Virus record (IMG/VR): IMGVR_UViG_3300033153_011579
DNA from: a virus
Lineage: Duplodnaviria; Heunggongvirae; Uroviricota; Caudoviricetes
DNA length: 64,000 bases
Reading direction: 5' to 3' (one strand)
In this document: positions 1 to 16,487 of the stretch, piece after piece
Numbering within the stretch: the first letter of the stretch is position 1
Layout: every line of letters begins with the position of its first letter
Notes under the pieces: generated by a model
What the model saw: the letters and a program-made list of their open reading frames with translations, nothing else
Database searches by the model: none
What the model was told of the DNA's origin: nothing
Position numbers and translations under genes: made by a program

Positions 1-92
1 TCGCGGCGAGGGAGATGGAGCTCGAGCGCATCCGAGATCATTTATACAAGAACAGGGTCGAGGATTTCATCAGGGACGCCAATGGCGACTGA
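1..92 (+). CDS. 3' end of an upstream gene that runs in from outside the window (…MELERIRDHLYKNRVEDFIRDANGD*)
   Basis: Open frame from position 3 to TGA at 90-92; overlaps integrase start as ATGGCGACTGA. Confidence 0.35.
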   Translation, partial: AAREMELERIRDHLYKNRVEDFIRDANGD

Positions 93-969
93 GCAGCTAG
101 CTGCTTTTGAGCGGTTCCTCGAGCGCGGTGCGGCCAGTGGCCGCGCGCTGAGCGCGTCGTCGATCACGACGTACATGAAGGTCGCCAAGCTGATCGTCAA
201 GGCGAAGAAGCCGGAGAAGATTCTGGTCGCCGGGCTGAGCGTTTCTACCAAGACGAAGTACGTGTCTGTGCTGCGGCACTGGGCGGCGTTCACGAAAGAC
301 GCCGAGCTGGCGGAGATGGTGAGCGGCGGACCGCAGCTACAAAAGCTGCTGAAGAACCGTGAGTCGAAACTCCCGCAGAAGATCGAGGCGTTCACCGACG
401 CCGAGGTCGACCGGTTCCTCGAAATCCTGAAGGTGGTCAAGGGTGGCGAGCCGCCGTGGGTGTGGCCGTGTGTGTCGCTCCAGCTTCATCTCGCGCTGCG
501 GGTGAGCGCGGACCTGGCCGGCGTCCGACGGGACGCCGTGGAGAGCGCGCTCGTCACGAAGAAGCTCGCGCTGATGGGAAAGCGAGAGCGGATCGACTTC
601 ATGCCGGCGGGGTTCGTGGCCGAGGAGCTGCAGATGCTTGCCGAGCTCCCAAGCTGGGAGATCGTCGCGGACCTGATGTCGCCGACGACCAGGAAGCTGG
701 GCGAGTACGCCCACCGGCAGAAGGCGTACGAGATGTACGTCAGGGCGATGCAGGTCTTGGGTCCGAAGGCGGGGATCGTCGCGACGAAGACGCATCGGTT
801 TCGCCACTGGGGGATCACGAATTTTATCAAGAAGGTGGCCAAGGGCGACATCAAGCGAGCCCAGAGGTTCGCGCGCCACGCGAGTATCGAGACGACCCTC
901 CTCTACTACAGGACGGTCGACCTCGAGGAGGACGACGCGGCCCTGGCGGAGCTGAAAGGAAGACAATGA
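82..969 (+). CDS. int: Tyrosine recombinase / integrase (XerC/D-like, 295 aa)
   Basis: C-terminal catalytic boxes HRFRHWGIT (H-x-x-R) and ARHASIETTLLYY (catalytic Tyr); N-terminal SAM-like core-binding region. Confidence 0.8.
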   Translation: MATEQLAAFERFLERGAASGRALSASSITTYMKVAKLIVKAKKPEKILVAGLSVSTKTKYVSVLRHWAAFTKDAELAEMVSGGPQLQKLLKNRESKLPQKIEAFTDAEVDRFLEILKVVKGGEPPWVWPCVSLQLHLALRVSADLAGVRRDAVESALVTKKLALMGKRERIDFMPAGFVAEELQMLAELPSWEIVADLMSPTTRKLGEYAHRQKAYEMYVRAMQVLGPKAGIVATKTHRFRHWGITNFIKKVAKGDIKRAQRFARHASIETTLLYYRTVDLEEDDAALAELKGRQ

Positions 970-1139
970 GCGACAACCACATCTACGCCCCGGGGCGCTG
1001 CGTGAGCTGTGCACAGCGACGTTGGGACATCGAAGCCAAGAAGGCGGAGTGCGCGCTGGACCGTCCGGAATTCGATGCCGGTGACGACGGGAAGCGACGC
1101 GAGTGCTGGGAGTCGGGCAACGAGGACGAGGACCGGTAA
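966..1139 (+). CDS. Small Cys-containing protein (57 aa)
   Basis: ATG overlaps int stop (ATGA); SD AAGGAAG upstream; CVSC…C…C pattern. The listed 456..1139 ORF is only real from here. Confidence 0.5.
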   Translation: MSDNHIYAPGRCVSCAQRRWDIEAKKAECALDRPEFDAGDDGKRRECWESGNEDEDR

Positions 1140-1172
1140 GAGAGTGATGAATTCTCTGACACGGAGGGGACG

Positions 1173-1730
1173 ATGAAGGTCGATATTCCAGACAACGTGA
1201 TCGAAAATCTCGTCGACGAAAAGGTCAAACAGAAAATGCGGGAGGTCGGATTCGATCTCGTAAAGTCTCTGAAAGGCTGGTTAGACCAGATCGACACTGT
1301 TGGTGAACTGTCTGCCTGGTCTACGGTGACTTACTATTTCATAGATACTTATCATCGGTTTTTCGAATTGCGGTGGGGGGAGTTTGAGCTGGATGGGCAA
1401 GCCGTCCCTCCTAAAACAGAAGTTGTCTTCGATGCTGGTTTAGACTCTGACGGTTTCGGCTTGGTCAAGCTATCGTCCGGTGAGTATGGATATTCTCAAT
1501 GTGAAAAACCGTGGATTCGTGTGAAGCCGACCGTTCACCGTTACGGCCCCGAAGAGAACCAGGTCGTCCTTGAGTATGACGAGCCGTGGTGTGATGGCAA
1601 GTGCCGGGTTCGCGTCGAAGACGGTGAACATATAACCCTCTGGCAGGAAGAAGAATTTAAAAAAGACTCAGAGGAGTTTGATGAGCTACGACAGGCCTGG
1701 GAGTCGATCATGAAACCGCCGGAAAAGTGA
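1173..1730 (+). CDS. Hypothetical protein (185 aa)
   Basis: Preceded by junction cassette (GTAAGAGAGTGATGAATTCTCTGACACGGAGGGGACG-ATG). Confidence 0.7.
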   Translation: MKVDIPDNVIENLVDEKVKQKMREVGFDLVKSLKGWLDQIDTVGELSAWSTVTYYFIDTYHRFFELRWGEFELDGQAVPPKTEVVFDAGLDSDGFGLVKLSSGEYGYSQCEKPWIRVKPTVHRYGPEENQVVLEYDEPWCDGKCRVRVEDGEHITLWQEEEFKKDSEEFDELRQAWESIMKPPEK

Positions 1731-1769
1731 CTGTAAGGGAATGCGCAATTCTCTGACACGGAGGAGCGG

Positions 1770-2021
1770 ATGAGCTACGGAAGAACACCATACTACATCC
1801 TCAACATGATCAATTCGGACTGTGTTCACTTCTGGTGTGAGCTCGGAGAGGTTCTCGTGCCACAGCGCGCTGTCGACCAGTTTTGTGTCGTCCGCGTGCT
1901 GAACCCAGACGAGCTCATCCATGCTTTTCGCTGGTTCGAGGAACAGCGCCCGGACTGGGAGGACCTCCGCGAAGACTTTGTGGCAGCGCTCCGCAAAATA
2001 GCAGACGAGATAGAACGGTAA
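1770..2021 (+). CDS. Hypothetical protein (83 aa)
   Basis: Cassette 1732-1769 immediately upstream, SD GGAGG 8 nt before ATG. Confidence 0.7.
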   Translation: MSYGRTPYYILNMINSDCVHFWCELGEVLVPQRAVDQFCVVRVLNPDELIHAFRWFEEQRPDWEDLREDFVAALRKIADEIER

Positions 2022-2054
2022 GGGAATGCGGAATTCTCTGACACGGAGGAGACG

Positions 2055-2465
2055 ATGAACAAAGCAACCAAGGCACTCAAGACTCTCCGGGCTGTAAGTC
2101 GACCAGGTAGCCCGACGCGCCAGGCTGCCGTTCTAGGGTTGGCTGAAATTGAGAGGCTACGAAAGCAACGTGACGAAGCTCGACGTGACCACGCTGTTCC
2201 GGGGATGTACGCTCTCGGCTACGCGCTGTTCTACTTCCAGTTCAGTAACCGCGATCACGACTATGGAGATCAGGTCGGCCGCGTCCACGCTCTCTGTGAG
2301 CGCTGGGTGGATCTCCGGGCACGAGAGCACGCCGCGATGCTACAGGAGTTCGACCTCAACGAAGATCCAGACGACAAGAAGTGGGAAGCCTTCCTGCAGG
2401 GGTGGGCTCCAGAGTGGGACAAGCTCCTGGAAGACATCGACGACGAGTGCGAGAACCTGTGCTGA
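2055..2465 (+). CDS. Hypothetical protein (136 aa)
   Basis: Cassette 2018-2054 upstream. Confidence 0.7.
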   Translation: MNKATKALKTLRAVSRPGSPTRQAAVLGLAEIERLRKQRDEARRDHAVPGMYALGYALFYFQFSNRDHDYGDQVGRVHALCERWVDLRAREHAAMLQEFDLNEDPDDKKWEAFLQGWAPEWDKLLEDIDDECENLC

Positions 2466-2508
2466 GGGGCTGTAAGAGAATGCGGATTTTTCTGACACGG
2501 AGGAGTTG

Positions 2509-2712
2509 ATGGAGTATTTCTCGACACTGTTTAACATCATGCTCGGCGCGCTCGGTATCTTGGGACTCCTTGTTGGAGGGGGGATCTTTATTGTGGGCAT
2601 CGCGGCGACTATAGTGGAGGAAAAGGCTAGATTCTTGTTGCTGTGCCCGATTGGATTTTTGGCCGGGTGCAGCGGATTAGCCTGGTTCGTCACGGTGGTG
2701 AAGTATCTGTAA
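2509..2712 (+). CDS. Small membrane protein (67 aa, 2 TM)
   Basis: Cassette 2471-2508; ATG at 2509 (track start 2506 is TTG); hydrophobic GALGILGLLVGGGIFIVGIAATIV. Confidence 0.65.
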   Translation: MEYFSTLFNIMLGALGILGLLVGGGIFIVGIAATIVEEKARFLLLCPIGFLAGCSGLAWFVTVVKYL

Positions 2713-2745
2713 GAGAATGTAGAGTTCTCTGACGAGGAGCGGATT

Positions 2746-3075
2746 ATGACTGTCGAAGAAACAAGCGAAGAGCTGGCGCTGGAGGGACGATCGGTGGTCA
2801 TCGAGGTGACCCGCTTTCCCAAGGGCACATCCCGCGGCCGGGTGACATCGCTCGCCGTCGGCATCGACCCCGAGGTGAAGGAGGGGGACGAGGCCGTCGA
2901 TGTGTCTCCCGCCCTCGTGGTCGACGCGCTGATCTACGCCCTGAAGCTGAACTACGACGCTGAGAGCCAGCACGGATCGGACGAGACCGCCGAGGAGTAC
3001 GTCGAGGACGTGGCGCGGATCCTGCTGTCGCAGATCGAGAACGATGAGCCGAGCTCGCTCAGGAGGGTCCACTGA
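2746..3075 (+). CDS. Hypothetical acidic protein, paralogue copy 1 (109 aa)
   Basis: Cassette upstream; ~90% identical to the 5953..6282 product. Confidence 0.7.
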   Translation: MTVEETSEELALEGRSVVIEVTRFPKGTSRGRVTSLAVGIDPEVKEGDEAVDVSPALVVDALIYALKLNYDAESQHGSDETAEEYVEDVARILLSQIENDEPSSLRRVH

Positions 3076-3088
3076 CACGGAGAAGAAA

Positions 3089-3280
3089 ATGACTATGCTG
3101 ACCGCCTATATCGTTCTGGGGGTGCTCGTGCTGGGAGCTATCGGTACCGGTATCTGGGCCAAGCTCACTGGTGATCCGGTCCCTGTGATTCTTTGCGCCC
3201 TACTGATCGCGGCGGCGGCGGCGCTGTTGAACATCCCGTCGAGCAGGTTCGCCAAGTCCAAGAAGGAGCTCGACCGATGA
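3089..3280 (+). CDS. Small membrane protein (63 aa)
   Basis: Partial cassette CTGACACGGAGAAGAAA-ATG (no inverted repeat); two hydrophobic helices. Confidence 0.6.
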   Translation: MTMLTAYIVLGVLVLGAIGTGIWAKLTGDPVPVILCALLIAAAAALLNIPSSRFAKSKKELDR

Positions 3281-3519
3281 AAAGATTCAAACTTCACCAG
3301 CGAGTCCGCGTGACCGAGGGCGAGCTCGTCGGCCGATTCGGAGCCGTCTGGCGGTGTCGTCGAGCCGATGATGCGGCATGGATCGCGATGGACGAAGACA
3401 TCCCGGAGTCGCTGCGACAGTTTCCAGCAAACGACGCACACGGCCGCGGTAACCACGTGATCCTCTGGCCGGACCAATGCGAGAGGATCACCAAAGCGCC
3501 GAAGCTGAAGGCTGTGTGA
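3277..3519 (+). CDS. Hypothetical protein (80 aa)
   Basis: ATGA overlap with upstream stop; MKRFKLHQRVRVTEGE…. Confidence 0.55.
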   Translation: MKRFKLHQRVRVTEGELVGRFGAVWRCRRADDAAWIAMDEDIPESLRQFPANDAHGRGNHVILWPDQCERITKAPKLKAV

Positions 3520-3851
3520 TGATTCGAAACGGCGACAAACCAGGTGAGCGACGGTTAGCTCTTCCGATCCACTTCCGTGGGCCGACCAGGTGCCTCGGGG
3601 TGGAGGGGACCGTCGATGACGACTACAACGTGGTTCCAGTAGGTCGAGCTCGAGCTTGCGTGCTGAAGGACCTCTGCATCCGCTATCGGGACCGAGAAGA
3701 CTATGGACCGGCGACCCCCTGGTACTCCGAGTGTCCTTACGACTGGCAACGGATGATCTGTACGGAATATCAAACTTCGTGGAGAAATCGAGGGCCGGTG
3801 ATGGACCGTTTGGTAGACATCTACGCCGCGATGCCAGCGAGGGAGAAGTAG
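3519..3851 (+). CDS. Hypothetical protein (110 aa)
   Basis: TGATG overlap with upstream gene; Cys/Trp-containing. Confidence 0.55.
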   Translation: MIRNGDKPGERRLALPIHFRGPTRCLGVEGTVDDDYNVVPVGRARACVLKDLCIRYRDREDYGPATPWYSECPYDWQRMICTEYQTSWRNRGPVMDRLVDIYAAMPAREK

Positions 3852-3853
3852 TC

Positions 3854-4339
3854 TTGGTTGAAATCACACACGACCGCCTCGTGAAAGCTGCAGCTATCTG
3901 GCTCGGCCAGAAGCATCGAGTGGTCTCCACCGAGCTCGTCTGCAGTACCGTCTCAGAGAACGCCGATGCTATCGGATGGGACGGTTACGGCAGGTGCATG
4001 GTCATCGAGTGCAAGGTCAGCCGCTCAGATTTTCTCGCCAACAAGCACAAACCACACGAGATCGTCGGTGACTCCATGGGGAACGAGCGCTGGTTCATGA
4101 CACCACCTGGTCTTGTCGAGCCAAAGGAGTTGCCGCGCAGCCACGGGCTCCTCGAGTACACGCCCAGTGGCCACGGGTCCGGCTACTTCATCCGCAAGGT
4201 CAAGAAAGCTCGGCCGCGGAAGAGGACGGTCGACCGGCTTTGGAACGAGAACCGAACACTGGTCGCCATCGCAGGCCGTGCTCTCGAGGCCGCTTCGAGG
4301 CTCAAGCCGCTCTGGCTCGGTGACGGCGAGGACGAGTAA
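3854..4339 (+). CDS. Putative PD-(D/E)xK-family nuclease-like protein
   Basis: Motif …ADAIGWDGYGRCMVIECKVSRSDF… (D…ExK); probable TTG start at 3854 with SD AGGGAG 8 nt upstream; start uncertain. Confidence 0.4.
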   Translation: MVEITHDRLVKAAAIWLGQKHRVVSTELVCSTVSENADAIGWDGYGRCMVIECKVSRSDFLANKHKPHEIVGDSMGNERWFMTPPGLVEPKELPRSHGLLEYTPSGHGSGYFIRKVKKARPRKRTVDRLWNENRTLVAIAGRALEAASRLKPLWLGDGEDE

Positions 4340-4374
4340 GAGAATGCCGGATTCTATGACACGGAGGAGTGAAG

Positions 4375-4581
4375 ATGGGCGTGCGAACAAAAAAGTTGGC
4401 TGAATGGAAACACGCTGCCATCGAGGCGTTCTACCGACTAGATAGCCTCGTCAATGACAGCGAGTGTGACAACGCAGAGGAACCATACTCCGATTGGCAG
4501 CCGTGCGAGGATGGGTGCAACTACTGTGACGATCGCGAGGCGAGGGACAGGATCGCCCAGCTCATGGCCAAGGACCAATAG
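4375..4581 (+). CDS. Small Cys-rich protein (68 aa)
   Basis: Cassette 4337-4374 upstream; C…C…CNYCD. Confidence 0.65.
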   Translation: MGVRTKKLAEWKHAAIEAFYRLDSLVNDSECDNAEEPYSDWQPCEDGCNYCDDREARDRIAQLMAKDQ

Positions 4582-4620
4582 GCTGTAAGAGAGTGATAGA
4601 TTCTCTGACACGGAGGATAA

Positions 4621-4744
4621 GTGGATCGACGGCAAGTACAAGGAATCCGGCATGGACATCGATGGCAACCTCGACCGCGAAGTTGCGATCTTCCACCTGA
4701 CCGGTAAGGGGCGGGAGGCCGCGAAAAGCGATGAGGAAAAATGA
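4621..4744 (+). pseudogene. Cassette-associated ORF with apparent frame disruption
   Basis: Cassette positions a GTG at 4621, but that frame stops after 28 Arg-rich codons. The +1 frame (…KWIDGKYKESGMDIDGNLDREVAIFHLTGKGREAAKSDEEK*) is protein-like but lacks a start. Confidence 0.3.
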
Positions 4745-4845
4745 AAGAGACAATTGTCGAAATCATGTTTGGGTATCTGTATTTTGCGTTGGGTGGGGGT
4801 GCCGTCGCCTATGTGTGGTGGATGAGTAGCACTTTTGGAGGATGA
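4741..4845 (+). CDS. Small single-TM peptide (34 aa), not in ORF track
   Basis: ATG 4741, MKETIVEIMFGYLYFALGGGAVAYVWWMSSTFGG*; fills an otherwise non-coding gap. Confidence 0.45.
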   Translation: MKETIVEIMFGYLYFALGGGAVAYVWWMSSTFGG

Positions 4846-4846
4846 G

Positions 4847-5050
4847 ATGGACAACCCCGACCTGTACTGCGTGAAGTGCTCGATCGGACTTGGCTTCGGT
4901 CCGCGCGCAACCATCGACAAGAAGGATTACTGCAACGGCTGCGCTGTCTACTTGCTACGCGCCCGCGTGGCCGAACTAGAATCTCAACCGGCGCAGACGA
5001 TGCCTGTCAAACGCACCGTGCGCGAGGCGGTGAACGATGATGTTGATTAG
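4847..5050 (+). CDS. Small Cys-containing protein (67 aa)
   Basis: SD GGAGGA 5 nt upstream; shares a YLLRARVAELE(S/A)Q segment with the 6829..7152 product. Confidence 0.6.
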   Translation: MDNPDLYCVKCSIGLGFGPRATIDKKDYCNGCAVYLLRARVAELESQPAQTMPVKRTVREAVNDDVD

Positions 5051-5339
5051 AGCAATCGGCAGCTCCCTGCTCGCAGTGGCGAGCATGACTATCCGTTGGA
5101 TTGCGGCCGACCTTCTAAGGAGTAAAGGAAAACACATGAGATCAACAACAATAGAAAAGATGTGTCAGGCAGCATCGGTACTCGACCGGGAGAAGTTTGA
5201 TGCTCTCGCCGAAGACCTTTTCGACGAACTGGCGGCTTCTACGACTCGGATGTCAGCAGCTATTCACAATTCGTACTGTCCGAAGTGCCTCGAAAAACAA
5301 CTCATAATCGACGACCTGCGGATCGTCGATCCTGACTGA
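5037..5339 (+). CDS. Hypothetical protein (alternative start 5136)
   Basis: ATGATG overlapping upstream stop; internal ATG 5136 has the better SD (AAAGGAAAA). Confidence 0.4.
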   Translation: MMLIRAIGSSLLAVASMTIRWIAADLLRSKGKHMRSTTIEKMCQAASVLDREKFDALAEDLFDELAASTTRMSAAIHNSYCPKCLEKQLIIDDLRIVDPD

Positions 5340-5418
5340 TGAGGAATGACACGTTCCTTACGAAGAAAACGAATTTTGTAAGAGAACCCCAAGATTCTCT
5401 GACATGGAGGAGATAGTG

Positions 5419-5682
5419 ATGTTCGACGATTGGTCAACTTGGCAACTAGTACTGACCGGTGTCTTCTACTTTTTTCTGTGTATGCTGATCGGATTTCTTG
5501 CCACAGCCGTCCCAGCCTGGGTGCAGCTGTGGAGGGTCAAACAAGAATGTCGGAGTCGGGTAGCTCAAGCCAATCGAAGGTTTGATCTGTCTACTCGTGA
5601 TTTGTGTAAGAGAATGTCGGTTTCTCTGACACGGAGAAGAGAATGGGAACGGAAAAAGATCAAGACAACGTCAGGCACCTGA
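5419..5682 (+). CDS. Small membrane protein (87 aa)
   Basis: Hairpin-B plus cassette-A in tandem upstream (5343-5418); N-terminal TM; ORF reads through the next cassette. Confidence 0.55.
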   Translation: MFDDWSTWQLVLTGVFYFFLCMLIGFLATAVPAWVQLWRVKQECRSRVAQANRRFDLSTRDLCKRMSVSLTRRREWERKKIKTTSGT

Positions 5683-5945: not shown

Positions 5946-5952
5946 GGACAAG

Positions 5953-6282: not shown

Positions 6283-6295
6283 CACGGAGGGGAAG

Positions 6296-10733: not shown

Positions 10734-10766
10734 GAGAATCAACGATTCTCTGACATGGAGGACAGG

Positions 10767-10961
10767 ATGAAACGCACGCTGTTGACCGAGATCGACTTTG
10801 ACCGTCAGAGCTGTCGGGTCATCGAGGCGGAGATCATCAAGTGCAACACCTGTAAGGGTAGCGGTTGGAAAGAGGTTTCGACGCACCGCGGAAACTACAG
10901 ACGCCGCTGTGCTCAGTGCCACGGCACAGGCAAGGTGCTGGTGGGACCGAAGGTTCGATGA
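10767..10961 (+). CDS. Zn-ribbon protein (64 aa)
   Basis: Cassette upstream; CNTCKGSG…CAQCHGTG. Confidence 0.65.
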   Translation: MKRTLLTEIDFDRQSCRVIEAEIIKCNTCKGSGWKEVSTHRGNYRRRCAQCHGTGKVLVGPKVR

Positions 10962-11002
10962 CTGTAAGAGAACAGACGATTCTCTGACACGAGGAGAGAA
11001 GG

Positions 11003-11254
11003 ATGAATTTCAGTAACGAGCAAATGACAGAGTGGCTGTCGGAGGTTCCGGAAGCTACCAGCGTACGCTGCGTGGCTATCCCTCCGTACATCAGTAAAGA
11101 GATGAAGGAGCGGCCAGTGATTCCGTGGGATCTGCTTACCCGAGAAGTCAACAACAAGATAGGTGATGGTGACCGCGTACTCGGGATTCGTGCTGCGGGG
11201 GCCAACTCCTACGGCAATTACTGGATCATCATTTGGGTTGGCAACAAAGAGTGA
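11003..11254 (+). CDS. Hypothetical protein (83 aa)
   Basis: Cassette upstream. Confidence 0.65.
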   Translation: MNFSNEQMTEWLSEVPEATSVRCVAIPPYISKEMKERPVIPWDLLTREVNNKIGDGDRVLGIRAAGANSYGNYWIIIWVGNKE

Positions 11255-11293
11255 GCTTGTAAGAGAAACTAATATTCTCTGACGGAGGAGAGC

Positions 11294-11527
11294 ATGGACA
11301 ACGATACCAAAAGACTGTGTGGCAACTGCTTCTGGTTTGATCAAGAGCTCTGTCGACGACTGCCACCGCGCATGATTGACCAGGTAGATCTTTATGAAAA
11401 AGATAGTGAGTTCAACACCTGGAATGCCAGTTACGCAGACGACTACACCTCTTGGCCAGTTGTAGAAGAGAAAGCCTGGTGCGGAGAATGGCGATCGAAG
11501 GAAGACGGCTGGCCCGTCGGTAAGTAA
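11294..11527 (+). CDS. Hypothetical protein (77 aa)
   Basis: Cassette upstream. Confidence 0.65.
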   Translation: MDNDTKRLCGNCFWFDQELCRRLPPRMIDQVDLYEKDSEFNTWNASYADDYTSWPVVEEKAWCGEWRSKEDGWPVGK

Positions 11528-11559
11528 GAGAATCAAACATTCTCTGACACGAGGAGAAG

Positions 11560-11673
11560 ATGATGGAAATTCTAATTTTTTGGCTGTGCTTTTGTGGACT
11601 CGGAGCCGTTGGTATATTGGTAGCGTCCTTGGTGATCCTCAGTGAGGAACGTCAACGAAACGGTCGCCAGTAA
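11560..11673 (+). CDS. Small single-TM peptide (37 aa), not in ORF track
   Basis: Cassette 11526-11559 upstream; MMEILIFWLCFCGLGAVGILVASLVILSEERQRNGRQ*. Confidence 0.55.
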   Translation: MMEILIFWLCFCGLGAVGILVASLVILSEERQRNGRQ

Positions 11674-11714
11674 GAGAATCAGCACGTTCCCTGAAAGGAA
11701 GATTGGAGAACAAA

Positions 11715-11927
11715 ATGTCGAAGAACACGGTCACGCAGCACGTTTTGGTTGATTCCCATGTTGAGTGCTTCCCTGAGGAATTCCTCGAAGCACTTCTCGC
11801 AGTTTGTCCGGCTCCCTTGGCACCGGACAGTCTTAAACAACTCCGTGACATAGGGAGAGTCCAGTTGAGCCTCTGGCTTTCCCCGGAGGACTTGAAGCGC
11901 TGGACAGGTAAAGCGCCAGGGGAATGA
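11715..11927 (+). CDS. Hypothetical protein (70 aa)
   Basis: Hybrid A/B motif upstream (GTAAGAGAATCAGCACGTTCCCTG). Confidence 0.55.
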   Translation: MSKNTVTQHVLVDSHVECFPEEFLEALLAVCPAPLAPDSLKQLRDIGRVQLSLWLSPEDLKRWTGKAPGE

Positions 11928-11976
11928 CACTTTCCCTGTGCCTACACAACAACCGCCTAGTGGGGCAAGGAGTAGG

Positions 11977-12330
11977 ATGATGACAGAGCATACATTGACC
12001 GTTGGTGGAAGCGAGGTCGTGGTTTCGAGTAACCCTGTTTCAAGGGACCTTGTCGGCTCGGACCGCAGCTTCGGAGATGAACGCGCGCACCCATGTCCGA
12101 ACTGTAGCAAAAATAGTCTGCGCTACCATTTCCTCGACTACAGGCCTGCGCTGTCGTGGGCCTGCGTCGAGTGTGGCTATGCTGAGCACCCGCCGATTGA
12201 AAAGTTGGTTGCCGATGGGTACTCCCCGCAGAAGGTAGAGGAGGATTGGTCGACCTGCATTTACCCAAAGGAGTGGATGCTTTACTCCCCGCTTGAGCGG
12301 TTAGCGTCACCACAAACACGAAAGGATTAG
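11977..12330 (+). CDS. Zn-ribbon protein (117 aa)
   Basis: Hairpin-B at 11929, SD AAGGAG; CPNC…CVECG. Confidence 0.55.
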   Translation: MMTEHTLTVGGSEVVVSSNPVSRDLVGSDRSFGDERAHPCPNCSKNSLRYHFLDYRPALSWACVECGYAEHPPIEKLVADGYSPQKVEEDWSTCIYPKEWMLYSPLERLASPQTRKD

Positions 12331-12334
12331 AACG

Positions 12335-12685
12335 ATGGGTTTGTTTTCACCACCAGGCCAAGCTCCAGATCTCCGAGAGGCGAAAGATGTTAGAGTTATC
12401 GTCACCCTATGCAAGGACGAAGAACCAGGTGATGGATATGTCCGAACACAGATAACCGCTCTCGATGAACTCGAGGAGGGTGAAGAGGGTTTAAATATTA
12501 ACGGAGACAACGTCTTTGAGGCACTGGTTTACGCGCTGTACCACCACTTTGTAAACGAGCACGAGGTTGGGCATTCTTGTTGCCTTACTCATTTTATCGA
12601 AGAGATCACAGACCTACTGGAGCGTGTCAACGAGACTGACGGAAACGAAAAGGTCAGTCGGAGTTCTGAAGAACACACACATTAA
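12335..12685 (+). CDS. Hypothetical acidic protein (116 aa)
   Basis: SD AAAGGA upstream. Confidence 0.55.
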   Translation: MGLFSPPGQAPDLREAKDVRVIVTLCKDEEPGDGYVRTQITALDELEEGEEGLNINGDNVFEALVYALYHHFVNEHEVGHSCCLTHFIEEITDLLERVNETDGNEKVSRSSEEHTH

Positions 12686-12794
12686 TAAGGGTTATTGCAT
12701 CAGCTGCGGACCGTCGACCCTGTATGAGGAATGACACGTTCCCTGGTGGGAGAACGTCGAACTGGAGTGAGAGGAGTTTGAATGTTTAAAGCAC

Positions 12795-12943
12795 GTCGAG
12801 TTCTCCGAGCGCGCGGTGAGTGTGGACGGGGGCCTGCGTTGGGTTTTTGTGACGAATTCTCCTTAGCAGGCCTTCTACGTGGAGTGCTTCAACCATTCCA
12901 TCGACCTACTCGACCCACTCACCGCGCGCTCGGAGAACTCGAC
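12795..12943. repeat. 28-bp perfect inverted repeat with a 93-bp spacer in a non-coding gap
   Basis: GTCGAGTTCTCCGAGCGCGCGGTGAGTG (12795-12822) and its exact reverse complement at 12916-12943; an inner IR GGCCTGC/GCAGGCC lies in the loop. Confidence 0.85.
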
Positions 12944-12971
12944 GGCACGCAGTCGGGGGAAGGAGAAAAGA

Positions 12972-13181
12972 ATGCGAAAATATCGATTTCAGCACGATGA
13001 GGATGGTGACGTGCTGTGGGTCTACATCGCCGGTAACTCCGCGTACCCAGGGGAGCACCGCTTCGATCCACCAGAAGTTTTGGAGGCCTACATCGGTTAC
13101 CTTCGAGCATGTAAAGGTGATCAACTTGATTCTGATGTAGTTATCGCCTGGAAGGACAGTGCTTGGGGTCCGGATGTCTGA
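12972..13181 (+). CDS. Hypothetical protein (69 aa)
   Basis: SD GGAAGGAGAAAAG upstream; the region 12686-12971 upstream is non-coding and structured. Confidence 0.5.
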   Translation: MRKYRFQHDEDGDVLWVYIAGNSAYPGEHRFDPPEVLEAYIGYLRACKGDQLDSDVVIAWKDSAWGPDV

Positions 13182-13232
13182 TGACACGTTCCCTGGTACC
13201 CCTATGCCCAAACACTAGGCAGGAGGAATGAG

Positions 13233-13412
13233 ATGTCTGAAAAGAAAGCTGTGGTTCAACGTGTTGTCATCCACGAACTCTTGGATGCAGGTGTGGTGGC
13301 GATCGAAGGACGTGATCTTGTGTTCGAGTCCCCCTGGGACAAGGGCTCAGAGGCGATGATTGCTTTGATGAAGAAAGGCCTCGTCAAAGACGTGGTCCGG
13401 GACAGGGAATGA
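13233..13412 (+). CDS. Hypothetical protein (59 aa), not in ORF track
   Basis: Hairpin-B at 13188, SD AGGAGGAATGAG-ATG; MSEKKAVVQRVVIHELLDAGVVAIEGRDLVFESPWDKGSEAMIALMKKGLVKDVVRDRE*. Confidence 0.5.
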   Translation: MSEKKAVVQRVVIHELLDAGVVAIEGRDLVFESPWDKGSEAMIALMKKGLVKDVVRDRE

Positions 13413-13437
13413 CACGTCCCCTGAAAGGAGAAGCCCG

Positions 13438-13713
13438 ATGGGTCAAACAACATCCGACAATCCAGGTGGAGTGAAGTCGCTCTTCGAAGATAACAACTCA
13501 CAAAAAGCTACTGCCTCCACGCTCGCCGGATACCTCGTCGAAGATGGTGCTTGGATGGTATTGCCAGATGGGGACCGCGAGATCACTATTGTGCGGCACA
13601 GAGACTATGGCACGATCATGTATCTCATTGATGGTCCAGGCGAGGATATAAGAAGCGGCGTAGTAAAAACGGTGCGAGAACTCGCTGACGCCATCGCCGT
13701 TGGTGGGGAATGA
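13438..13713 (+). CDS. Hypothetical protein (91 aa)
   Basis: Hairpin-B 13408 plus SD AAAGGAGAAG upstream. Confidence 0.6.
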   Translation: MGQTTSDNPGGVKSLFEDNNSQKATASTLAGYLVEDGAWMVLPDGDREITIVRHRDYGTIMYLIDGPGEDIRSGVVKTVRELADAIAVGGE

Positions 13714-13774
13714 CACGTTCCCTAGGAACTTGAGCTTGTAAGAGAATCTCGCATTCTCTGACACGGAGGAAAAA

Positions 13775-13954
13775 ATGGACGAACACATGAGATATTTAGG
13801 CTGCCTGAAACTACTTGAGGATTGCTCACCTTACGTACCGGAAGAGATTCGTGAGGGTATCGAGATGGCTCACGACGATGCTGTAGAGGCCAGCAACGGG
13901 ACCTTGCGGGCTCGCAGTGTGCTCGATCGACGAGAGATCGAGGTGGTGACGTAA
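13775..13954 (+). CDS. Hypothetical protein (59 aa), not in ORF track
   Basis: Tandem hairpin-B plus cassette-A upstream (13711-13774). Confidence 0.5.
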   Translation: MDEHMRYLGCLKLLEDCSPYVPEEIREGIEMAHDDAVEASNGTLRARSVLDRREIEVVT

Positions 13955-13985
13955 GAGAATCCGCACGTTCTCTTACACGGAGGAA

Positions 13986-14189
13986 ATGATGGGTAAAGAT
14001 GTGAGGACCAAGACATTCGCTATGATGTTTCGGGAGCGCTGCGTGATCATGCGGGATGCTTTCGACCGCCGTGACGTAGAGGGCTTTGCTACTGCTCTCA
14101 AGGACGTTGAGCGCCTGATGCGAGAGCACGCCGAGGGGTGCGGCTGCTCACAATGCCGAGAGACGCTGAAGATCATGAATGAGGTGTAA
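13986..14189 (+). CDS. Cys-containing protein (67 aa)
   Basis: Cassette upstream; CGCSQC. Confidence 0.6.
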   Translation: MMGKDVRTKTFAMMFRERCVIMRDAFDRRDVEGFATALKDVERLMREHAEGCGCSQCRETLKIMNEV

Positions 14190-14223
14190 GAGAATACACA
14201 CGTCCTTTAACACGGAGGAAACG

Positions 14224-14460
14224 ATGAGTACTGTTCTGGATAATGACCAAAAATTGATGGTAATTCTGGCGGTTGTGGTGGCACTCTTCCTGTTAATTTT
14301 GGCTGGTGGGAAGCTTATTGGTGATGTTTTGTCACCCCCAACACCCCAAGAGGACTGTATGAACCAGGCCCAGCAGCTGGACAGCGAGGAGTCTGAGAAA
14401 GAAGCCTACTACAAGTGTCTTGAGTCTTTAGGGCTGGAAGATCCTAAAAAGGCTTTGTAA
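14224..14460 (+). CDS. Small membrane protein (78 aa)
   Basis: Cassette upstream; TM LMVILAVVVALFLLILAGG. Confidence 0.65.
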   Translation: MSTVLDNDQKLMVILAVVVALFLLILAGGKLIGDVLSPPTPQEDCMNQAQQLDSEESEKEAYYKCLESLGLEDPKKAL

Positions 14461-14492
14461 GAGAATCTTCCGTTCTCTGACACGGAGAAGAA

Positions 14493-15164
14493 GTGAAGCT
14501 GAGAAAACCACCAATCCTCTGCTCGATCTGCGGAGACCCAATCGTCACGAAGTGGCGAGACAAGCGAAGGCAGACCTGCGGGTCTCCCGAGTGCCGGGTG
14601 GCGATCCTGCTCGAGCCGCACCTGGGCGACCGGACTCGACCGTACGCCGGCGGAGCTCGCGGGAAGTGGAAAAAAAGCACCAAGCGCGGGTCGGTGGTGC
14701 GCGACCTCGCGAAGTGGGGTATTGGGCTTTCCGAGGAGATCTCCACGAACCTCGCCGACGCGGCCGACCAGGTCTTTAAGAGAACCAAAACCGCGAAGGC
14801 GGTCGGGACGAAGAAGGACGAGCGCGGTGCGGACCACCCGGAGGCCCAGGCTCAGATCTGGGGCTTCCTCGCTCGTAGGAGCGCGCTCATAAAAGTCGTC
14901 AGCAAGGACGACGGCGAGCCCGGGTTGCTCATTCTCAAAACCAAAAGCGAGAGTGTCCCGCACGCCATCCGCCGTCTCCTGAGCATCACCCCGGTCTCCG
15001 AGAACCTGTGCGATGTCTTCATGGCGTGGAGCTGTCCTTGCCCTCAGGACTCTCGAGTGATTTACGAAACGATCGACGACCTGCCCAAGACGGTAGGCTA
15101 TCACGACCCGTGCCCGCGTTGCGGTGCGGCACCACTGGAGGTGAAAAATGTTCCTAAAAAATAG
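14493..15164 (+). CDS. Zn-finger protein (223 aa, GTG start)
   Basis: Cassette upstream; CSICG…CGSPEC …CPRCG. Confidence 0.6.
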   Translation: MKLRKPPILCSICGDPIVTKWRDKRRQTCGSPECRVAILLEPHLGDRTRPYAGGARGKWKKSTKRGSVVRDLAKWGIGLSEEISTNLADAADQVFKRTKTAKAVGTKKDERGADHPEAQAQIWGFLARRSALIKVVSKDDGEPGLLILKTKSESVPHAIRRLLSITPVSENLCDVFMAWSCPCPQDSRVIYETIDDLPKTVGYHDPCPRCGAAPLEVKNVPKK

Positions 15165-15528
15165 CGTGTTCCTTCCCGGGCGAGGCTGGCTACTCGTGAA
15201 GCCACCGGAGTCGGAAGCCGACACAGGAGAGGTCTACACTGTCGACGTGATCGAGCTCGCCGCCGAGGAGAAGTCCGCGTGCCCGCAGTTCCAGGAGGAG
15301 ACAGCGATACGCGGTGCTGGCGGCGCTCCGATGATGACCGTGGACATCGTGCTCCCGAAGCGCTGCTACGTCGGTGACCGGTGGAGCGTACTAAAGGACA
15401 GAGACGCAGTGCGCGAGGTACCCGACCTGGACGGTGCCCTGCTCAAGACCGAGGAGGTGATCGGCTGGGAGTGGGAGGACGACCGTCTCAAGCCGCCTCC
15501 TGGCGTCGTAGAGGACCTGGACTCCTGA
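15148..15528 (+). CDS. Hypothetical protein (126 aa); weak GroES-like N-terminus
   Basis: PGRGWLLVKPPESEADTGEVY loosely resembles the GroES mobile-loop region; speculative. Confidence 0.4.
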   Translation: MFLKNSVFLPGRGWLLVKPPESEADTGEVYTVDVIELAAEEKSACPQFQEETAIRGAGGAPMMTVDIVLPKRCYVGDRWSVLKDRDAVREVPDLDGALLKTEEVIGWEWEDDRLKPPPGVVEDLDS

Positions 15529-16487
15529 TGCCGACCAGAGCACACATCCAGGCGTTGGCCAACGCGAGAGAGGCTCTCGAGCCGTTCAGCCGGTGGCTCG
15601 TCCGCGGGTGCGGGAAGACCGATGGAGAGGCCGACTTCATCATCAGCTTCGTGTGTCGCGCGCTGTGGACTTCCACCGCCGACGACGACGAGGATCCCGA
15701 CCCGCTCGATTGCCTCTCCGAGCCGATGATCACCCGGCCGACATTCAACAAGCTGAAATCGGCCATCCGGCAGTATTACACCTGGCACCTCGTCCGGCAG
15801 TCGTCGCCACCGAGTGAGAAAGAGCGGGCGAGGCGGCAGCTCAGGCGGCTCGAATCCATCTTGCCGTACGGCGGCGTCGGGAGACGAGCCAAACGGGTCG
15901 CGATCGATGCGCTGTCGCAGGCGGATTTAAAAAAGCTCATGGACGGACTGAAAAAATGGCACGCGGAACAAGGACGGCGATGGCCCTGGAGCTACCCGGT
16001 GATCAGCATGTGCCTGAAGATCTCGCCGGCGATCAGAAACTGTCTGGTCTACCTCTCTCGTGAGGAGCTCGTCCTCGCTCTCGCCGACGGGGTGAACAGC
16101 GGGTCGTTCAACCTGTGGGTCCGCCAGAAGAACGTGCCGGTCATGAGGTCGATCCCCATCGGGCTCGTCTGGAAAGAGGCGGACATGCTCGTCGGCTGGC
16201 CCTGGCAATGGGAGACGCTCCAGGACATTATCTCGTCGTCCAACGCGAGCACCCAGAACTCGGTGAACAAGATCAAAGAGATCTCTTTCAAGTACTATCG
16301 CCACGTCCTGGGAGACATCGGCGACCCGAAGACGTTCTTAGCTCGACTTCGGTATGCCACCTGGGTCTGGCTCTTGAAAAAGACGAAAGGCGACTGGCTC
16401 TCCGTCGCGCAGATCGTCGGGAAGTCGGTAAAGATCCTCAGAAGACGGCCGGAGCTGCTCGAGGTCGTGTCGAGGAGGCTGAACTAG
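15528..16487 (+). CDS. Integrase-like protein with a degenerate catalytic box (319 aa)
   Basis: ARLRYATWVWLLKKTKGDWLSVAQIVGKS resembles box II of tyrosine recombinases (LRHTxAT…G.D…LGHS) but lacks the His and Tyr residues. Confidence 0.35.
   Translation: MPTRAHIQALANAREALEPFSRWLVRGCGKTDGEADFIISFVCRALWTSTADDDEDPDPLDCLSEPMITRPTFNKLKSAIRQYYTWHLVRQSSPPSEKERARRQLRRLESILPYGGVGRRAKRVAIDALSQADLKKLMDGLKKWHAEQGRRWPWSYPVISMCLKISPAIRNCLVYLSREELVLALADGVNSGSFNLWVRQKNVPVMRSIPIGLVWKEADMLVGWPWQWETLQDIISSSNASTQNSVNKIKEISFKYYRHVLGDIGDPKTFLARLRYATWVWLLKKTKGDWLSVAQIVGKSVKILRRRPELLEVVSRRLN

What the first reader, a model, noticed from the sequence alone, without database searches (positions are those of the whole stretch)
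82..16487. Mini-gene cassette array bounded by a tyrosine recombinase and a degenerate integrase-like gene
- A canonical tyrosine recombinase (R…HxxR…Y) opens the array.
- A 319-aa protein with a recognisable but catalytically incomplete box II (ARLRYAT…GKS, no Tyr) closes it.
- Together with repeated inverted-repeat elements between every ORF, the layout loosely resembles an integron or super-integron.
- However, the recombinase is co-directional and the repeats include the SD, so a regulatory or modular-shuffling role is at least as likely.
Basis: inference. Interest (0 to 1): 0.55.

Follow-up and report, generated by a model that had tools for sequence, protein, structure and literature searches.

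The report
Repeated operator-like junctions between phage genes
In an uncultivated phage, about 46 small early genes are joined by 34 copies of one palindrome fused to the ribosome-binding site; the same palindrome sits beside the operon's promoter, so it is most likely a protein-binding control site that also serves as a swap point for genes, not an integron.

Summary
Window 82-969 encodes a tyrosine recombinase with all catalytic residues. Window 15528-16487 encodes a full-length paralogue with a recombinase fold that keeps only one of those residues. Between them lie about 46 small + strand genes. Thirty-four of the 48 junctions carry the palindrome TGTAAGAGAAT-N5-ATTCTCTGACA. Its left arm usually supplies the upstream stop codon, and it is followed by CGGAGG and the start codon. 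There are 40 matches against 0.01 expected, all within 1137-14481.

It is not an integron: there are no attC-like sites, no IntI features, and the relative L004 keeps both recombinase genes without a single junction repeat.

The 7-5-7 core of the palindrome also abuts the -35 box of the operon's promoter in this phage and in two relatives. That copy can only act on DNA. Departures in the two arms do not preserve RNA pairing. I therefore read the repeats as operator or stoperator-like binding sites for an unidentified regulator.

Between related phages the junctions are 83-92% identical while the genes they flank are unrelated, so they also act as cassette-exchange points, as PeSLs do in T4-type phages. 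The closest descriptive match is the SAS/ESAS elements of Cluster K mycobacteriophages. This is a new variant of a known kind. The mechanism is inferred, not shown.

The parts
82..969 (+). Tyrosine recombinase (295 aa) with a complete catalytic set (R140, K167, H238, R241, H266, Y275/276). It is the conserved left flank of the variable region.
966..1139 (+). 57-aa Cys-rich protein with an acidic tail. Its TAA stop lies in the first palindrome. A homologue sits directly before the first junction repeat in L011/L029, and no homologue was detected in L004.
1135..14492 (+). Hyperplastic array of about 46 small ORFs (37-185 aa). Thirty-four junctions consist of stop codon, palindrome, Shine-Dalgarno sequence and start codon.
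1135..1161 (+). Junction palindrome, spacer GATGA
1732..1758 (+). Junction palindrome, spacer GCGCA
2017..2043 (+). Junction palindrome, spacer GCGGA
2471..2497 (+). Junction palindrome, spacer GCGGA
2708..2734 (+). Junction palindrome, spacer GTAGA
2746..3092 (+). Duplicated cassette, copy 1 (109-aa gene plus the downstream half junction). It is 92% identical to 5953-6299 and runs from its ATG to the next gene's ATG.
   Evidence: (D5)
3066..3085 (+). Half junction (CACTGACACGGAG), in which TGA is the upstream stop
   Evidence: (D3)
4335..4361 (+). Junction palindrome, spacer GCCGG
4584..4610 (+). Junction palindrome, spacer GATAG
5341..5359 (+). Core-only copy (GAGGAAT-GACAC-GTTCCTT), in tandem with the next copy
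   Evidence: (D9)
5377..5404 (+). Junction palindrome, 6-nt spacer CCCAAG
5605..5631 (+). Junction palindrome, spacer GTCGG
5953..6299 (+). Duplicated cassette, copy 2. It has no palindrome upstream.
   Evidence: (D5)
6273..6292 (+). Half junction (CACTGACACGGAGG)
   Evidence: (D3)
6489..6515 (+). Junction palindrome, spacer GTGCG
6808..6834 (+). Junction palindrome, spacer GGAGC. The start codon overlaps the right arm.
7148..7174 (+). Junction palindrome, spacer TTTAC
7678..7704 (+). Junction palindrome, spacer TTTGC
8372..8398 (+). Junction palindrome, spacer TTATG
8646..8672 (+). Junction palindrome, spacer TCAGG
9048..9074 (+). Junction palindrome, spacer TGAGA
9345..9371 (+). Junction palindrome, spacer TGGCG
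9630..9656 (+). Junction palindrome, spacer TGACA. The whole junction is 88% identical to L029 11040-11098, although the flanking genes are unrelated.
9941..9968 (+). Junction palindrome, 6-nt spacer CGACTG, degenerate right arm
   Evidence: (D8)
10461..10487 (+). Junction palindrome, spacer CTTCT
10729..10755 (+). Junction palindrome, spacer CAACG (the same spacer as L029 10414)
10963..10989 (+). Junction palindrome, spacer AGACG
11258..11284 (+). Junction palindrome, spacer CTAAT
11523..11549 (+). Junction palindrome, spacer CAAAC
11669..11696 (+). Junction palindrome, 6-nt spacer CAGCAC
11919..11937 (+). Core-only copy (GGGGAAT-GACAC-TTTCCCT). The TGA in its spacer is the upstream stop.
   Evidence: (D9)
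12726..12744 (+). Core-only copy (GAGGAAT-GACAC-GTTCCCT)
   Evidence: (D9)
13181..13197 (+). Half copy (ATGACACGTTCCCTGGT)
   Evidence: (D12)
13404..13422 (+). Core-only copy (AGGGAAT-GACAC-GTCCCCT)
   Evidence: (D9)
13705..13723 (+). Core-only copy (GGGGAAT-GACAC-GTTCCCT), in tandem with the next copy
   Evidence: (D9)
13737..13763 (+). Junction palindrome, spacer CTCGC (L029 11999 has CTCGCC)
13950..13977 (+). Junction palindrome, 6-nt spacer CCGCAC (the same spacer as L029 12291)
14185..14212 (+). Junction palindrome, 6-nt spacer ACACAC, degenerate right arm
   Evidence: (D7)
14456..14482 (+). Last junction palindrome, spacer CTTCC, in front of the conserved 223-aa gene
14493..15164 (+). 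223-aa protein of unknown function, first gene of the conserved right-flank trio. Homologues are present in L004 and L029. L007, L008, L017, L018, L026 and L027 carry genes of similar size in the same position, but their homology was not tested.
15148..15528 (+). 126-aa protein of unknown function, second gene of the conserved trio
15528..16487 (+). 319-aa catalytically dead paralogue of the recombinase, with a tyrosine-recombinase fold. It is the last + strand gene before the convergent - strand block.

Best explanation
Region 82-16487 is the variable ('hyperplastic') early-gene block of an uncultivated tailed phage.

Transcription (inferred): the roughly 46 small genes are probably read as one operon from a sigma70-type promoter about 1.2 kb upstream of the window.

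Junction anatomy (shown): most gene junctions are a standard module of about 40 nt. The upstream stop codon (TAA) sits inside the left arm of the palindrome TGTAAGAGAAT-N5-ATTCTCTGACA. The palindrome is followed by CGGAGG and the start codon.

Molecular function (inferred):
- The 7-5-7 core of the palindrome (AGRGAAT-N5-ATTCYCT) is the binding site of a phage-encoded, probably dimeric, DNA-binding regulator.
- One copy abuts the -35 box of the operon promoter, where it would control initiation.
- The 34 copies inside the operon would act as internal binding or roadblock sites that silence or time the block, as the stoperators of mycobacteriophage L5 do.

Evolutionary role (shown by comparison): the junction modules are the only DNA conserved between otherwise unrelated cassettes in related phages. 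They are therefore the crossover points at which cassettes are gained, lost and replaced, by homologous recombination between junctions as with T4-type PeSLs.

Recombinase genes: the two genes are conserved flanks of this hot spot. No evidence ties them to the repeats. The catalytically dead paralogue is only a candidate for the binding protein.
For: Enrichment and restriction:
- 40 matches against 0.01 expected, all within 1137-14481. No clean copy lies elsewhere in the window.

A DNA-level site at the promoter:
- The same core lies 1-3 nt upstream of the -35 hexamer at the head of the operon in all three phages.
- L001 4220-4238 is followed by TTGACC-17-TATGAT. L001 is identical to window 1-4938 and extends it upstream.
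- L029 7277-7295 is followed by TTGACA-18-TAATTT.
- L004 2105-2122 is followed by TTGACA.
- The three control regions align, including the iterons TTTCCCGTG.
- That copy lies upstream of the transcription start, so it cannot act as RNA from that promoter.

No support for an RNA helix:
- The palindrome helix is 91.5% paired against 91.8% in shuffles.
- The alternative helix between the right arm and the Shine-Dalgarno sequence is 88.9% paired against 89.3%.
- Folding z-scores are about 0.

A single operon is plausible:
- There is no excess of internal sigma70-like promoters (4 against 5.6 expected).

Cassette exchange:
- L011/L029 (Int 58% identical) carries six junction copies in front of six genes, none homologous to any window cassette.
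- By blastn, only Int, part of the 223-aa gene, the junctions (83-92% over 40-59 nt) and one unrelated repeat outside the array (window 16971-17102) align between the two phages.
- Three of the six L029 spacers are identical to window spacers (P about 4e-5 to 2e-4).
- Neighbouring spacers resemble each other (11 runs; 0 of 100,000 shuffles reached as few).
- Array size varies between the same two flanks: 0 junction copies in L004, 6 in L029 and 34 in the window.

Precedent:
- The L5 repressor binds operators at promoters and stoperators in short intergenic spaces (PMC9283540).
- The Cluster K authors argued from the same non-compensating departures that ESAS inverted repeats are DNA-binding sites (PMC3203893).
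Against: - No binding protein is identified. Pfam and PHROG scans of 45 array proteins found no helix-turn-helix repressor.
- A DNA site does not need the rigid fusion to the stop codon and the Shine-Dalgarno sequence, nor the constant spacing to the start codon. Those features fit an RNA or translational role better.
- The promoter copies share only the 7-5-7 core, not the outer TGTA/GACA bases. The L004 promoter copy has a 4-nt spacer.
- A second, unrelated hairpin-plus-RBS module on the - strand (18598-19454) suggests this phage may use RNA hairpins next to ribosome-binding sites generally.
- L5 stoperators are asymmetric and orientation-dependent. These sites are nearly symmetric.
- No evidence of lysogeny was found: there are no relatives in 185,579 species genomes.
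- Only three related phages are available.
Confidence: 0.4

Rival explanations
1. RNA-level element. In the polycistronic mRNA the left arm (AGAGAAU), the right arm (AUUCUCUG) and the Shine-Dalgarno region (CGGAGRA) form two mutually exclusive hairpins. One leaves the ribosome-binding site free. The other sequesters it through an ACA triloop. The module would tune or couple translation of each cassette, or serve as the target of an RNA-binding repressor or a processing nuclease, in the manner of T4 RegA or the T7 RNase III sites.
For: - Every array copy is intercistronic, in the sense orientation, and at a constant distance from the Shine-Dalgarno sequence and the start codon.
- The TAA of the left arm is the real upstream stop in most copies.
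- ViennaRNA returns the right-arm/Shine-Dalgarno hairpin as the MFE or centroid for 7666-7730 and 1722-1786, and the palindrome hairpin for 13725-13790.
- The C before GGAGG and the GACAC linker are conserved but are not explained by pairing with 16S rRNA.
- An unrelated hairpin-plus-RBS module occurs on the - strand.
Against: - There is no covariation and no excess pairing over shuffles for either helix.
- Among the 27 copies counted, the seven inner stem pairs (columns 5-11 with 17-23) show 9 G.U cells against 14 non-standard cells.
- The folds are no more stable than shuffled sequence (z about 0).
- The loop varies while the stem sequence is conserved, which is the reverse of most RNA-protein sites.
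- The promoter-proximal copies in three phages are not in that transcript.
- There is no Rfam match.
Confidence: 0.2
2. Integron-like or cassette-exchange platform. The palindromes would be simple lox/dif-type core sites (arms of 10 bp around a central region of 5-7 bp) for the 82-969 recombinase, perhaps paired with its inactive paralogue as an XerC/XerD-like heteromer. Different spacers would make neighbouring sites incompatible and would direct exchange between equivalent sites of co-infecting phages.
For: - A catalytically complete recombinase and a dead paralogue flank the array in the window and in L029.
- The site geometry resembles recombinase core sites (established knowledge of lox and dif; not tested here).
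- Spacers differ within an array but are shared between phages.
- Cassettes differ completely between phages while the sites are conserved.
- The two arms differ consistently at one position, A against C.
Against: - L004 keeps both recombinase genes but has no junction sites.
- The only duplication seen breaks at the start codons, not in the spacer.
- Contigs of the same phage from two other samples (five contigs, L001-L003, L014, L015) show no cassette rearrangement.
- The fusion to the Shine-Dalgarno sequence and the promoter-proximal copy are not explained.
- Adjacent copies 2017 and 2471 share a spacer, yet the gene between them is retained.
- No IntI features were found.
Confidence: 0.12
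3. A passive linker. The module would be simply a good stop-plus-RBS linker that has spread by local duplication and homologous recombination. The palindrome would have no trans-acting partner, and its resemblance to the promoter-proximal palindrome would be historical, because the junction was copied from the operator/-35 region.
For: - Neighbouring copies are the most alike.
- The right arm ends in CTGACA, a 5/6 match to the TTGACA that follows the promoter copy.
- There is no covariation.
Against: - The arms are almost invariant across 34 copies and across phages whose Int genes are only about 70% identical in DNA. That implies purifying selection on the sequence itself.
- Spacers are shared across phages.
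Confidence: 0.13

Closest known systems
Operator and stoperator sites of Cluster A mycobacteriophages (L5 repressor gp71)
   Same: One short sequence occurs both at the early promoter and more than 20 times in short intergenic spaces of the operons it controls. The copies are oriented with transcription (PMC9283540).
   Different: L5 sites are 13-nt, asymmetric, bound by a monomer and spread over the whole genome. Here the site is a near-palindrome of 19-27 nt confined to one 13.4-kb block and fused to the stop codon and the Shine-Dalgarno sequence. Neither a repressor nor lysogeny is shown.
SAS/ESAS (start-associated sequences) of Cluster K mycobacteriophages
   Same: A conserved sequence containing the Shine-Dalgarno motif lies just upstream of start codons of non-structural genes. 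It is preceded by imperfect inverted repeats with a variable spacer. The upstream stop codon is sometimes inside the motif. Departures in the arms do not preserve RNA pairing. The function is still unknown (PMC3203893; PMC12699233).
   Different: The sequence is different, the arms are shorter (10-11 against 17 nt) and the spacer is fixed at 5-6 nt. The density is much higher: 34 copies in 13.4 kb against 11-19 per genome. A promoter-proximal copy exists, and there is clear cassette turnover around the sites. The phage lineage is unrelated and uncultivated.
PeSL (promoter-early stem-loop) cassettes of T4-type phages
   Same: Short conserved regulatory modules flank small, mostly unknown genes in hyperplastic regions and act as recombination points for insertion, deletion and replacement (PMC2839356, PMC4122927).
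   Different: A PeSL is a terminator stem-loop plus a sigma70 early promoter, so each cassette is its own transcription unit. Here there is no internal promoter or terminator signal, and the module carries translation signals instead.
Integron (IntI, attI, attC cassettes)
   Same: An array of promoterless small cassettes separated by imperfect palindromes sits next to a tyrosine recombinase gene and is read from one upstream promoter.
   Different: The sites are 27 nt without the R''-L''/L'-R' architecture. The recombinase is co-directional and not IntI-like. A relative has the recombinases without the sites. A duplication breakpoint lies outside the palindrome.
Conserved inverted repeats (CIRs) bound by the phiC31 repressor
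   Same: Many copies of a conserved palindrome lie in intergenic regions of the early genes of a phage and are bound by the repressor. This is from memory and was not checked in the library.
   Different: The sequence and host are different, and the CIRs are not fused to ribosome-binding sites as far as I recall.

Membership tests
Integron | An IntI-type integrase (a tyrosine recombinase with the IntI-specific extra domain) | tested here: inconclusive
   82-969 falls below the Pfam gathering score for Phage_integrase. Its best PDB sequence hits are XerA and phage integrases, and IntI4 is not among them. No IntI-specific model was run.
Integron | attC sites: imperfect palindromes of 57-141 nt with R''-L''...L'-R' boxes and the core GTTRRRY | tested here: not met
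   The repeats are 27-nt simple palindromes, TGTAAGAGAAT-N5-ATTCTCTGACA. They have no GTTRRRY/RYYYAAC pair.
Integron | attI and the Pc promoter adjacent to a divergently oriented intI, with cassettes inserted at attI | tested here: not met
   The recombinase is co-directional. The promoter and its palindrome lie 1.2 kb upstream of the recombinase gene. The array starts downstream of the recombinase gene.
Integron | Cassette boundaries lie inside the recombination site | tested here: not met
   The duplicated cassette 2746-3092 / 5953-6299 runs from ATG to ATG. One copy has no palindrome upstream. This is a single case.
Tyrosine recombinase (82-969) | The catalytic residues R-K-H-R-H/W-Y in the C-terminal domain | tested here: met
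   R140, K167, H238, R241, H266 and Y275/276 are invariant in three homologues. The protein hits PHROG integrase at 2.4e-11. Activity is not testable here.
Tyrosine recombinase (15528-16487) | Recombinase fold | tested here: met
   The family profile hits XerH at E 4e-5, and also XerD, XerA and IntI4. The AF2 model (pLDDT 92) has XerH, Brujita Int and XerA as its top matches. The protein is a paralogue of 82-969.
Tyrosine recombinase (15528-16487) | Catalytic residues present | tested here: not met
   In alignment A1, Arg-I, His-II, the second His and the Tyr are replaced, and only Arg-II is kept. Only 3 of the 28 sequences in alignment A1 (which includes both window proteins) match Pfam Phage_integrase.
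Stoperator-type silencing system | The same site occurs at an early promoter and at many intergenic positions of the downstream operon | tested here: met
   Promoter copies are found in L001, L029 and L004. There are 34 intergenic copies in the window.
Stoperator-type silencing system | A phage repressor binds the sites and blocks elongation | not testable with these tools
   No candidate repressor is identified. In L029 a weak HTH_3 hit (E 0.003) falls on the first cassette gene.
SAS/ESAS | A conserved motif containing the Shine-Dalgarno sequence directly upstream of start codons, with upstream inverted repeats and a variable spacer, restricted to non-structural genes | tested here: met
   compared with the description in PMC3203893.
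SAS/ESAS | The Cluster K sequence itself (GGGATAGGAGCCC and 17-bp inverted repeats) in Cluster K mycobacteriophages | tested here: not met
   The consensus is different. There is no nucleotide match to any phage record.
PeSL | A sigma70-like early promoter plus a terminator stem-loop in each module | tested here: not met
   Promoter-like sites number 4 against 5.6 expected. No terminator-like site coincides in the sense orientation with the junctions.
PeSL | The modules mark the breakpoints of insertions, deletions and replacements between related phages | tested here: met
   The junctions are the conserved islands between unrelated cassettes of the window and L029. Array size varies between fixed flanks.

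The most novel reading that the evidence does not exclude
The palindromes are natural heterospecific recombination sites. The active recombinase (82-969), together with its catalytically dead paralogue (15528-16487) acting as an XerC/XerD-like partner, would bind the slightly asymmetric 10-7-10 sites. It would exchange single-gene cassettes between co-infecting phages only where the spacers match. The same sites would double as operator and translation linker. This would be a phage-borne, integron-like 'recombinase-mediated cassette exchange' system.

A weaker version is that the dead recombinase is the repressor that binds the promoter copy and the 34 junction copies.
Probability: 0.12. Interest if true: 0.85.

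Novelty: new variant of a known kind. Interest (0 to 1): 0.55.

Why it matters
- Repeated motifs at gene starts in phage early regions (stoperators, SAS/ESAS, PeSLs) have been known for more than a decade, but only stoperators have a mechanism.
- This array is an unusually clean and dense case. One module supplies the stop codon, a palindrome and the ribosome-binding site for 34 genes. The same palindrome sits at the operon's promoter in three diverged phages. The cassettes between the modules are completely replaced between relatives.
- It therefore offers a direct way to test whether such motifs are protein-binding sites that also drive gene shuffling.
- It also points to a family of catalytically dead tyrosine-recombinase paralogues with no functional annotation: 44 representatives in 1.8 billion proteins.
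- The small genes in such early blocks are where anti-defence and host-takeover functions are usually found.

Tried and rejected
Searches that found nothing:
- Nucleotide similarity to 50,697 phage records: none.
- Motif scan of viral contigs: one search used the wrong spacing (six N) and is uninformative. The corrected scan found nothing.
- Relatives of either recombinase-fold protein in viral contigs: none.
- Genome contigs: no relative of the recombinase, and only single chance matches to the motif. There is therefore no prophage or host clue.
- Rfam: no family at gathering threshold. The 12794-12944 hairpin gave only spurious miRNA hits.
- tRNA or attP-like clues: none.

Readings considered and rejected:
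- Junctions as sigma70 promoters: rejected. There is no excess, and only one junction has a -10 partner.
- Junctions as ECF-type promoters (TCTGA as the -10 element): rejected by reasoning. The spacing to any conserved upstream element is about 12 nt, and transcripts would start inside the Shine-Dalgarno sequence.
- Intrinsic terminators: rejected. There is no T tract.
- RNA hairpin by covariation: no support.

Other dead ends:
- Cassette rearrangement within the population: contigs L001-L003, L014 and L015, from two other samples, are collinear and at least 99.9% identical to the window.
- Function of the conserved 223-aa and 126-aa genes: no Pfam, PHROG or PDB match.
- PurZ against PurA for 26259-27368: not resolved.
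- Contexts of more distant dead-recombinase homologues: the contigs are too short to help.

Full report
**What the window is.** The window has no nucleotide match in 50,697 phage records. Its proteins nevertheless include phage families (GP88, DUF5131, several PHROGs). The exact 319-aa product of 15528-16487 is on record only on one JGI metagenome contig of 82,351 bp. Contigs from two other samples of the same project are identical or at least 99.9% identical to parts of the window (L001-L003, L014, L015). L001 extends the sequence 5,407 bp upstream of window position 1. The region of the finding is a block of + strand genes that ends at 16487, where a convergent - strand block begins.

**Checking the observation: the two recombinase-fold genes.**
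- ORF 82-969 matches integrase PHROGs (E 2.4e-11) and, weakly, Pfam Phage_integrase.
- In an alignment with two homologues of 58-61% identity, the residues R140, K167, H238, R241, H266 and Y275/276 are invariant.
- ORF 15528-16487 has no Pfam or PHROG hit of its own, but it aligns with 82-969 over its whole length (E 9e-7).
- An exhaustive HMMER search found 44 relatives.
- The profile of 28 aligned sequences (26 of those relatives plus the two window proteins) hits XerH (E 4e-5), XerD, XerA and IntI4.
- An AlphaFold model (pLDDT 92) has XerH, Brujita integrase and XerA as its three best PDB matches.
- In the alignment, the close relatives of the 319-aa protein have lost Arg-I, both His and the Tyr, and keep only Arg-II. 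Only 3 of the 28 sequences in that alignment match Pfam Phage_integrase.
It belongs to a wider family that carries no functional annotation.

**Checking the observation: the repeats.**
- The repeat is TGTAAGAGAAT-N5-ATTCTCTGACA. The arms are 11 nt with one constant A/G mismatch. The spacer is 5 nt, or 6 nt in six copies.
- It is followed by CGGAGG, then 3-6 nt, then the start codon.
- With up to 2 mismatches there are 40 matches on both strands against 0.01 expected, all within 1137-14481.
- A scan for the 7-5-7 core finds 34 copies in the array. Five of these are core-only copies (GGGAAT-GACAC-GTTCCC). There are also three half copies. No clean copy lies in the other 47.5 kb.
- In most copies the TAA of the left arm is the stop codon of the upstream gene. 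In the core-only and half copies a TGA in TGACAC plays that role.
- The ORFs are real genes at least in part: 16 PHROG families are hit among 45 products.

**RNA or DNA?**
- The palindrome can fold as a hairpin.
- I also noticed that the right arm (UUCUCUG) can pair instead with the Shine-Dalgarno region (CGGAGRA) through an ACA triloop. ViennaRNA returns that structure for some copies.
- Neither helix is supported. Pairing is no higher than when the 3' partners are shuffled among copies (91.5 against 91.8%, and 88.9 against 89.3%). There is essentially no covariation.
- Folding energies equal those of shuffled sequence.
- In the seven inner stem pairs of the 27 copies counted, G.U cells (9) are outnumbered by non-standard cells (14), so departures do not favour pairing.
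- The stem sequence is conserved and the loop is free, which is the pattern of a dimeric DNA-binding site.
- This is the argument used for the ESAS repeats of Cluster K mycobacteriophages (PMC3203893).

**The decisive context lies outside the window.** In L001, 1.2 kb upstream of the recombinase gene, the core AGGGAAT-CCCCT-ATTCTCT sits 3 nt before TTGACC-17-TATGAT. This is a strong sigma70-type promoter at the head of the + strand genes. Two related phages were found.
- L004 was found through a homologue of the dead paralogue. Its Int is 61% identical to the window's.
- L011, and its longer version L029, were found through a motif scan of metagenomes and an Int homologue. Int is 58% identical.
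- Both relatives have the same arrangement. L029 has AGGGAAA-CCAGT-ATTCCCT, then one base, then TTGACA-18-TAATTT. L004 has AGGGAAT-GTGA-ATTCCCT, then one base, then TTGACA.
- The three control regions align, including 4-6 upstream iterons TTTCCCGTG and one more between the -35 and -10 elements.
- A copy upstream of the transcription start cannot work as RNA in that transcript. Its conservation in three phages argues that the palindrome is a protein-binding DNA site.
- L004 has this promoter copy but no junction copies.

**Turnover of cassettes.** The variable block always lies between the same flanks: the recombinase on the left, and a trio of about 223, 126 and 319 aa on the right. The trio ends in the dead paralogue.
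- Between the flanks there are 2 genes and 0 junction repeats in L004. L029 has 9 genes, the last six of them each preceded by a junction repeat. The window has about 46 genes and 34 repeats.
- None of the six L029 cassettes is homologous to any window cassette.
- By blastn, only Int (70%), part of the 223-aa gene, the junctions themselves (83-92% over 40-59 nt) and one unrelated repeat outside the array align between the two phages.
- Three of the six L029 spacers are identical to window spacers (P about 4e-5 to 2e-4).
- Within the window, neighbouring spacers resemble each other (0 of 100,000 shuffles gave as few runs). This is what successive insertions that duplicate a junction would produce.
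- A few window cassettes have homologues at other positions in L004.
- One cassette is duplicated within the window. Its boundaries are the two start codons, not the palindrome.
- This is the behaviour described for PeSL modules in T4-type phages (PMC2839356, PMC4122927). Here, however, the module has no promoter or terminator.

**Interpretation.**
- I take the palindrome to be the operator of an unidentified phage regulator.
- The promoter copy would control initiation.
- The junction copies would act as internal binding or roadblock sites, by analogy with L5 stoperators (PMC9283540).
- Their conservation makes them the crossover points for cassette exchange.
- Shown: the anatomy, the enrichment, the promoter copies, the lack of RNA covariation, and the cassette turnover.
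- Inferred: that a protein binds, what it does to transcription, and that recombination is homologous rather than site-specific.
- Weaknesses: the tight fusion to the stop codon and the Shine-Dalgarno sequence is not required by this model, and no repressor candidate was found.
- The RNA model stays alive partly because an unrelated hairpin-plus-RBS module occurs on the - strand.

**The integron reading.** The geometry of the site (arms of about 10 bp around 5-7 variable bases), the flanking active and dead recombinase pair, and the spacers shared between phages keep a site-specific exchange model possible. Against it:
- L004 keeps both recombinase genes without any junction site.
- The one breakpoint pair seen is outside the palindrome.
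- The sites are nothing like attC.
- The gene order differs from that of an integron.

I give this reading about 0.12.

**Verdict.** Integron membership is not met. The feature is a new variant of a known kind of phage element: operator/stoperator-like and SAS/ESAS-like in form, and PeSL-like in evolutionary behaviour. It occurs in a phage lineage with no cultivated or catalogued relatives.

Noticed in passing
window 12794-12944 (+): A perfect 29-bp inverted repeat encloses a structured 93-nt insert. It lies in a gap of about 290 nt without a convincing gene, between 12685 and 12972. The RNA fold is -103.8 kcal/mol with z = -10.2. There is no real Rfam match, only spurious miRNA hits. It could be an RNase III-type processing site, a structured RNA or a DNA cruciform.
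   Followed up: partly
window 18598-18630, 18862-18894, 19216-19248, 19422-19454 (genes on the - strand): There are four copies of a second junction module, unrelated to the first. On the - strand it reads AGCCGGGTGGTTCCGGC-AGAAAGAGAGCGGAAA-ATG, that is, a G+C-rich hairpin directly before the ribosome-binding site of small genes and of the response-regulator-like gene.
   Followed up: partly
L001 4113-4195 (about 1.2-1.3 kb upstream of window position 1); also L029 7140-7235 and L004 1975-2060: There are four to six iterons TTTCCCGTG / CACGGGAA, plus a second small palindrome (TGTGCACA-type), just upstream of the promoter-proximal palindrome. One more TTTCCGTG lies between the -35 and -10 elements. 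The arrangement is conserved in three phages. It could be a regulatory switch, an origin, or arm-type sites.
   Followed up: partly
L001 3433-4107 (upstream of the window): The phage encodes its own sigma-70 family factor (Pfam regions 2 and 4) immediately upstream of the control region. No such gene is seen in the corresponding parts of L029 or L004.
   Followed up: no
window 26259-27368 (-): A short (369 aa) adenylosuccinate synthetase homologue (Pfam E 1e-39). It could be a PurZ-type enzyme for 2-aminoadenine DNA, but the best PDB sequence hits are ordinary PurA. The question is not resolved.
   Followed up: partly
window 17597-18598 (-) and 23469-24611 (-): A phage protein with a response-regulator receiver domain (E 3.5e-15), and a DUF5131 protein with a weak radical-SAM match.
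   Followed up: no
window 16889-17125: A tandem array of GGTGTC/GGTATC hexamers lies inside the - strand ORF 16484-17191. That ORF would encode a run of Asp-Thr-type dipeptide repeats.
   Followed up: no
L029 9849-10232 (= L011 2147-2530) and L029 5869-7059 (-): The related phage carries a ribosomal protein S12 homologue (Pfam Ribosom_S12_S23) between its recombinase gene and its array. It also carries an AcrVA2-like protein next to the control region.
   Followed up: no
window 1107-1139, 4307-4339, 8618-8650, 9317-9349; L011 2690-2712, 4278-4297: Several unrelated cassette proteins end in the same acidic tail (...GD(G/D)EDE, NEDEDR) immediately before the junction. The junction repeat therefore extends about 20-30 nt into the coding sequence.
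   Followed up: no
alignment A1, proteins P0002-P0044: The dead paralogue belongs to a family of 44 representative proteins (about 320-360 aa). Most have lost the catalytic Tyr and His, while a few (for example P0019) keep a canonical box II. In the contigs seen, members are preceded by one or two genes of conserved size (about 121-135 aa and/or 213-266 aa) and, in most, followed by convergent genes.
   Followed up: partly
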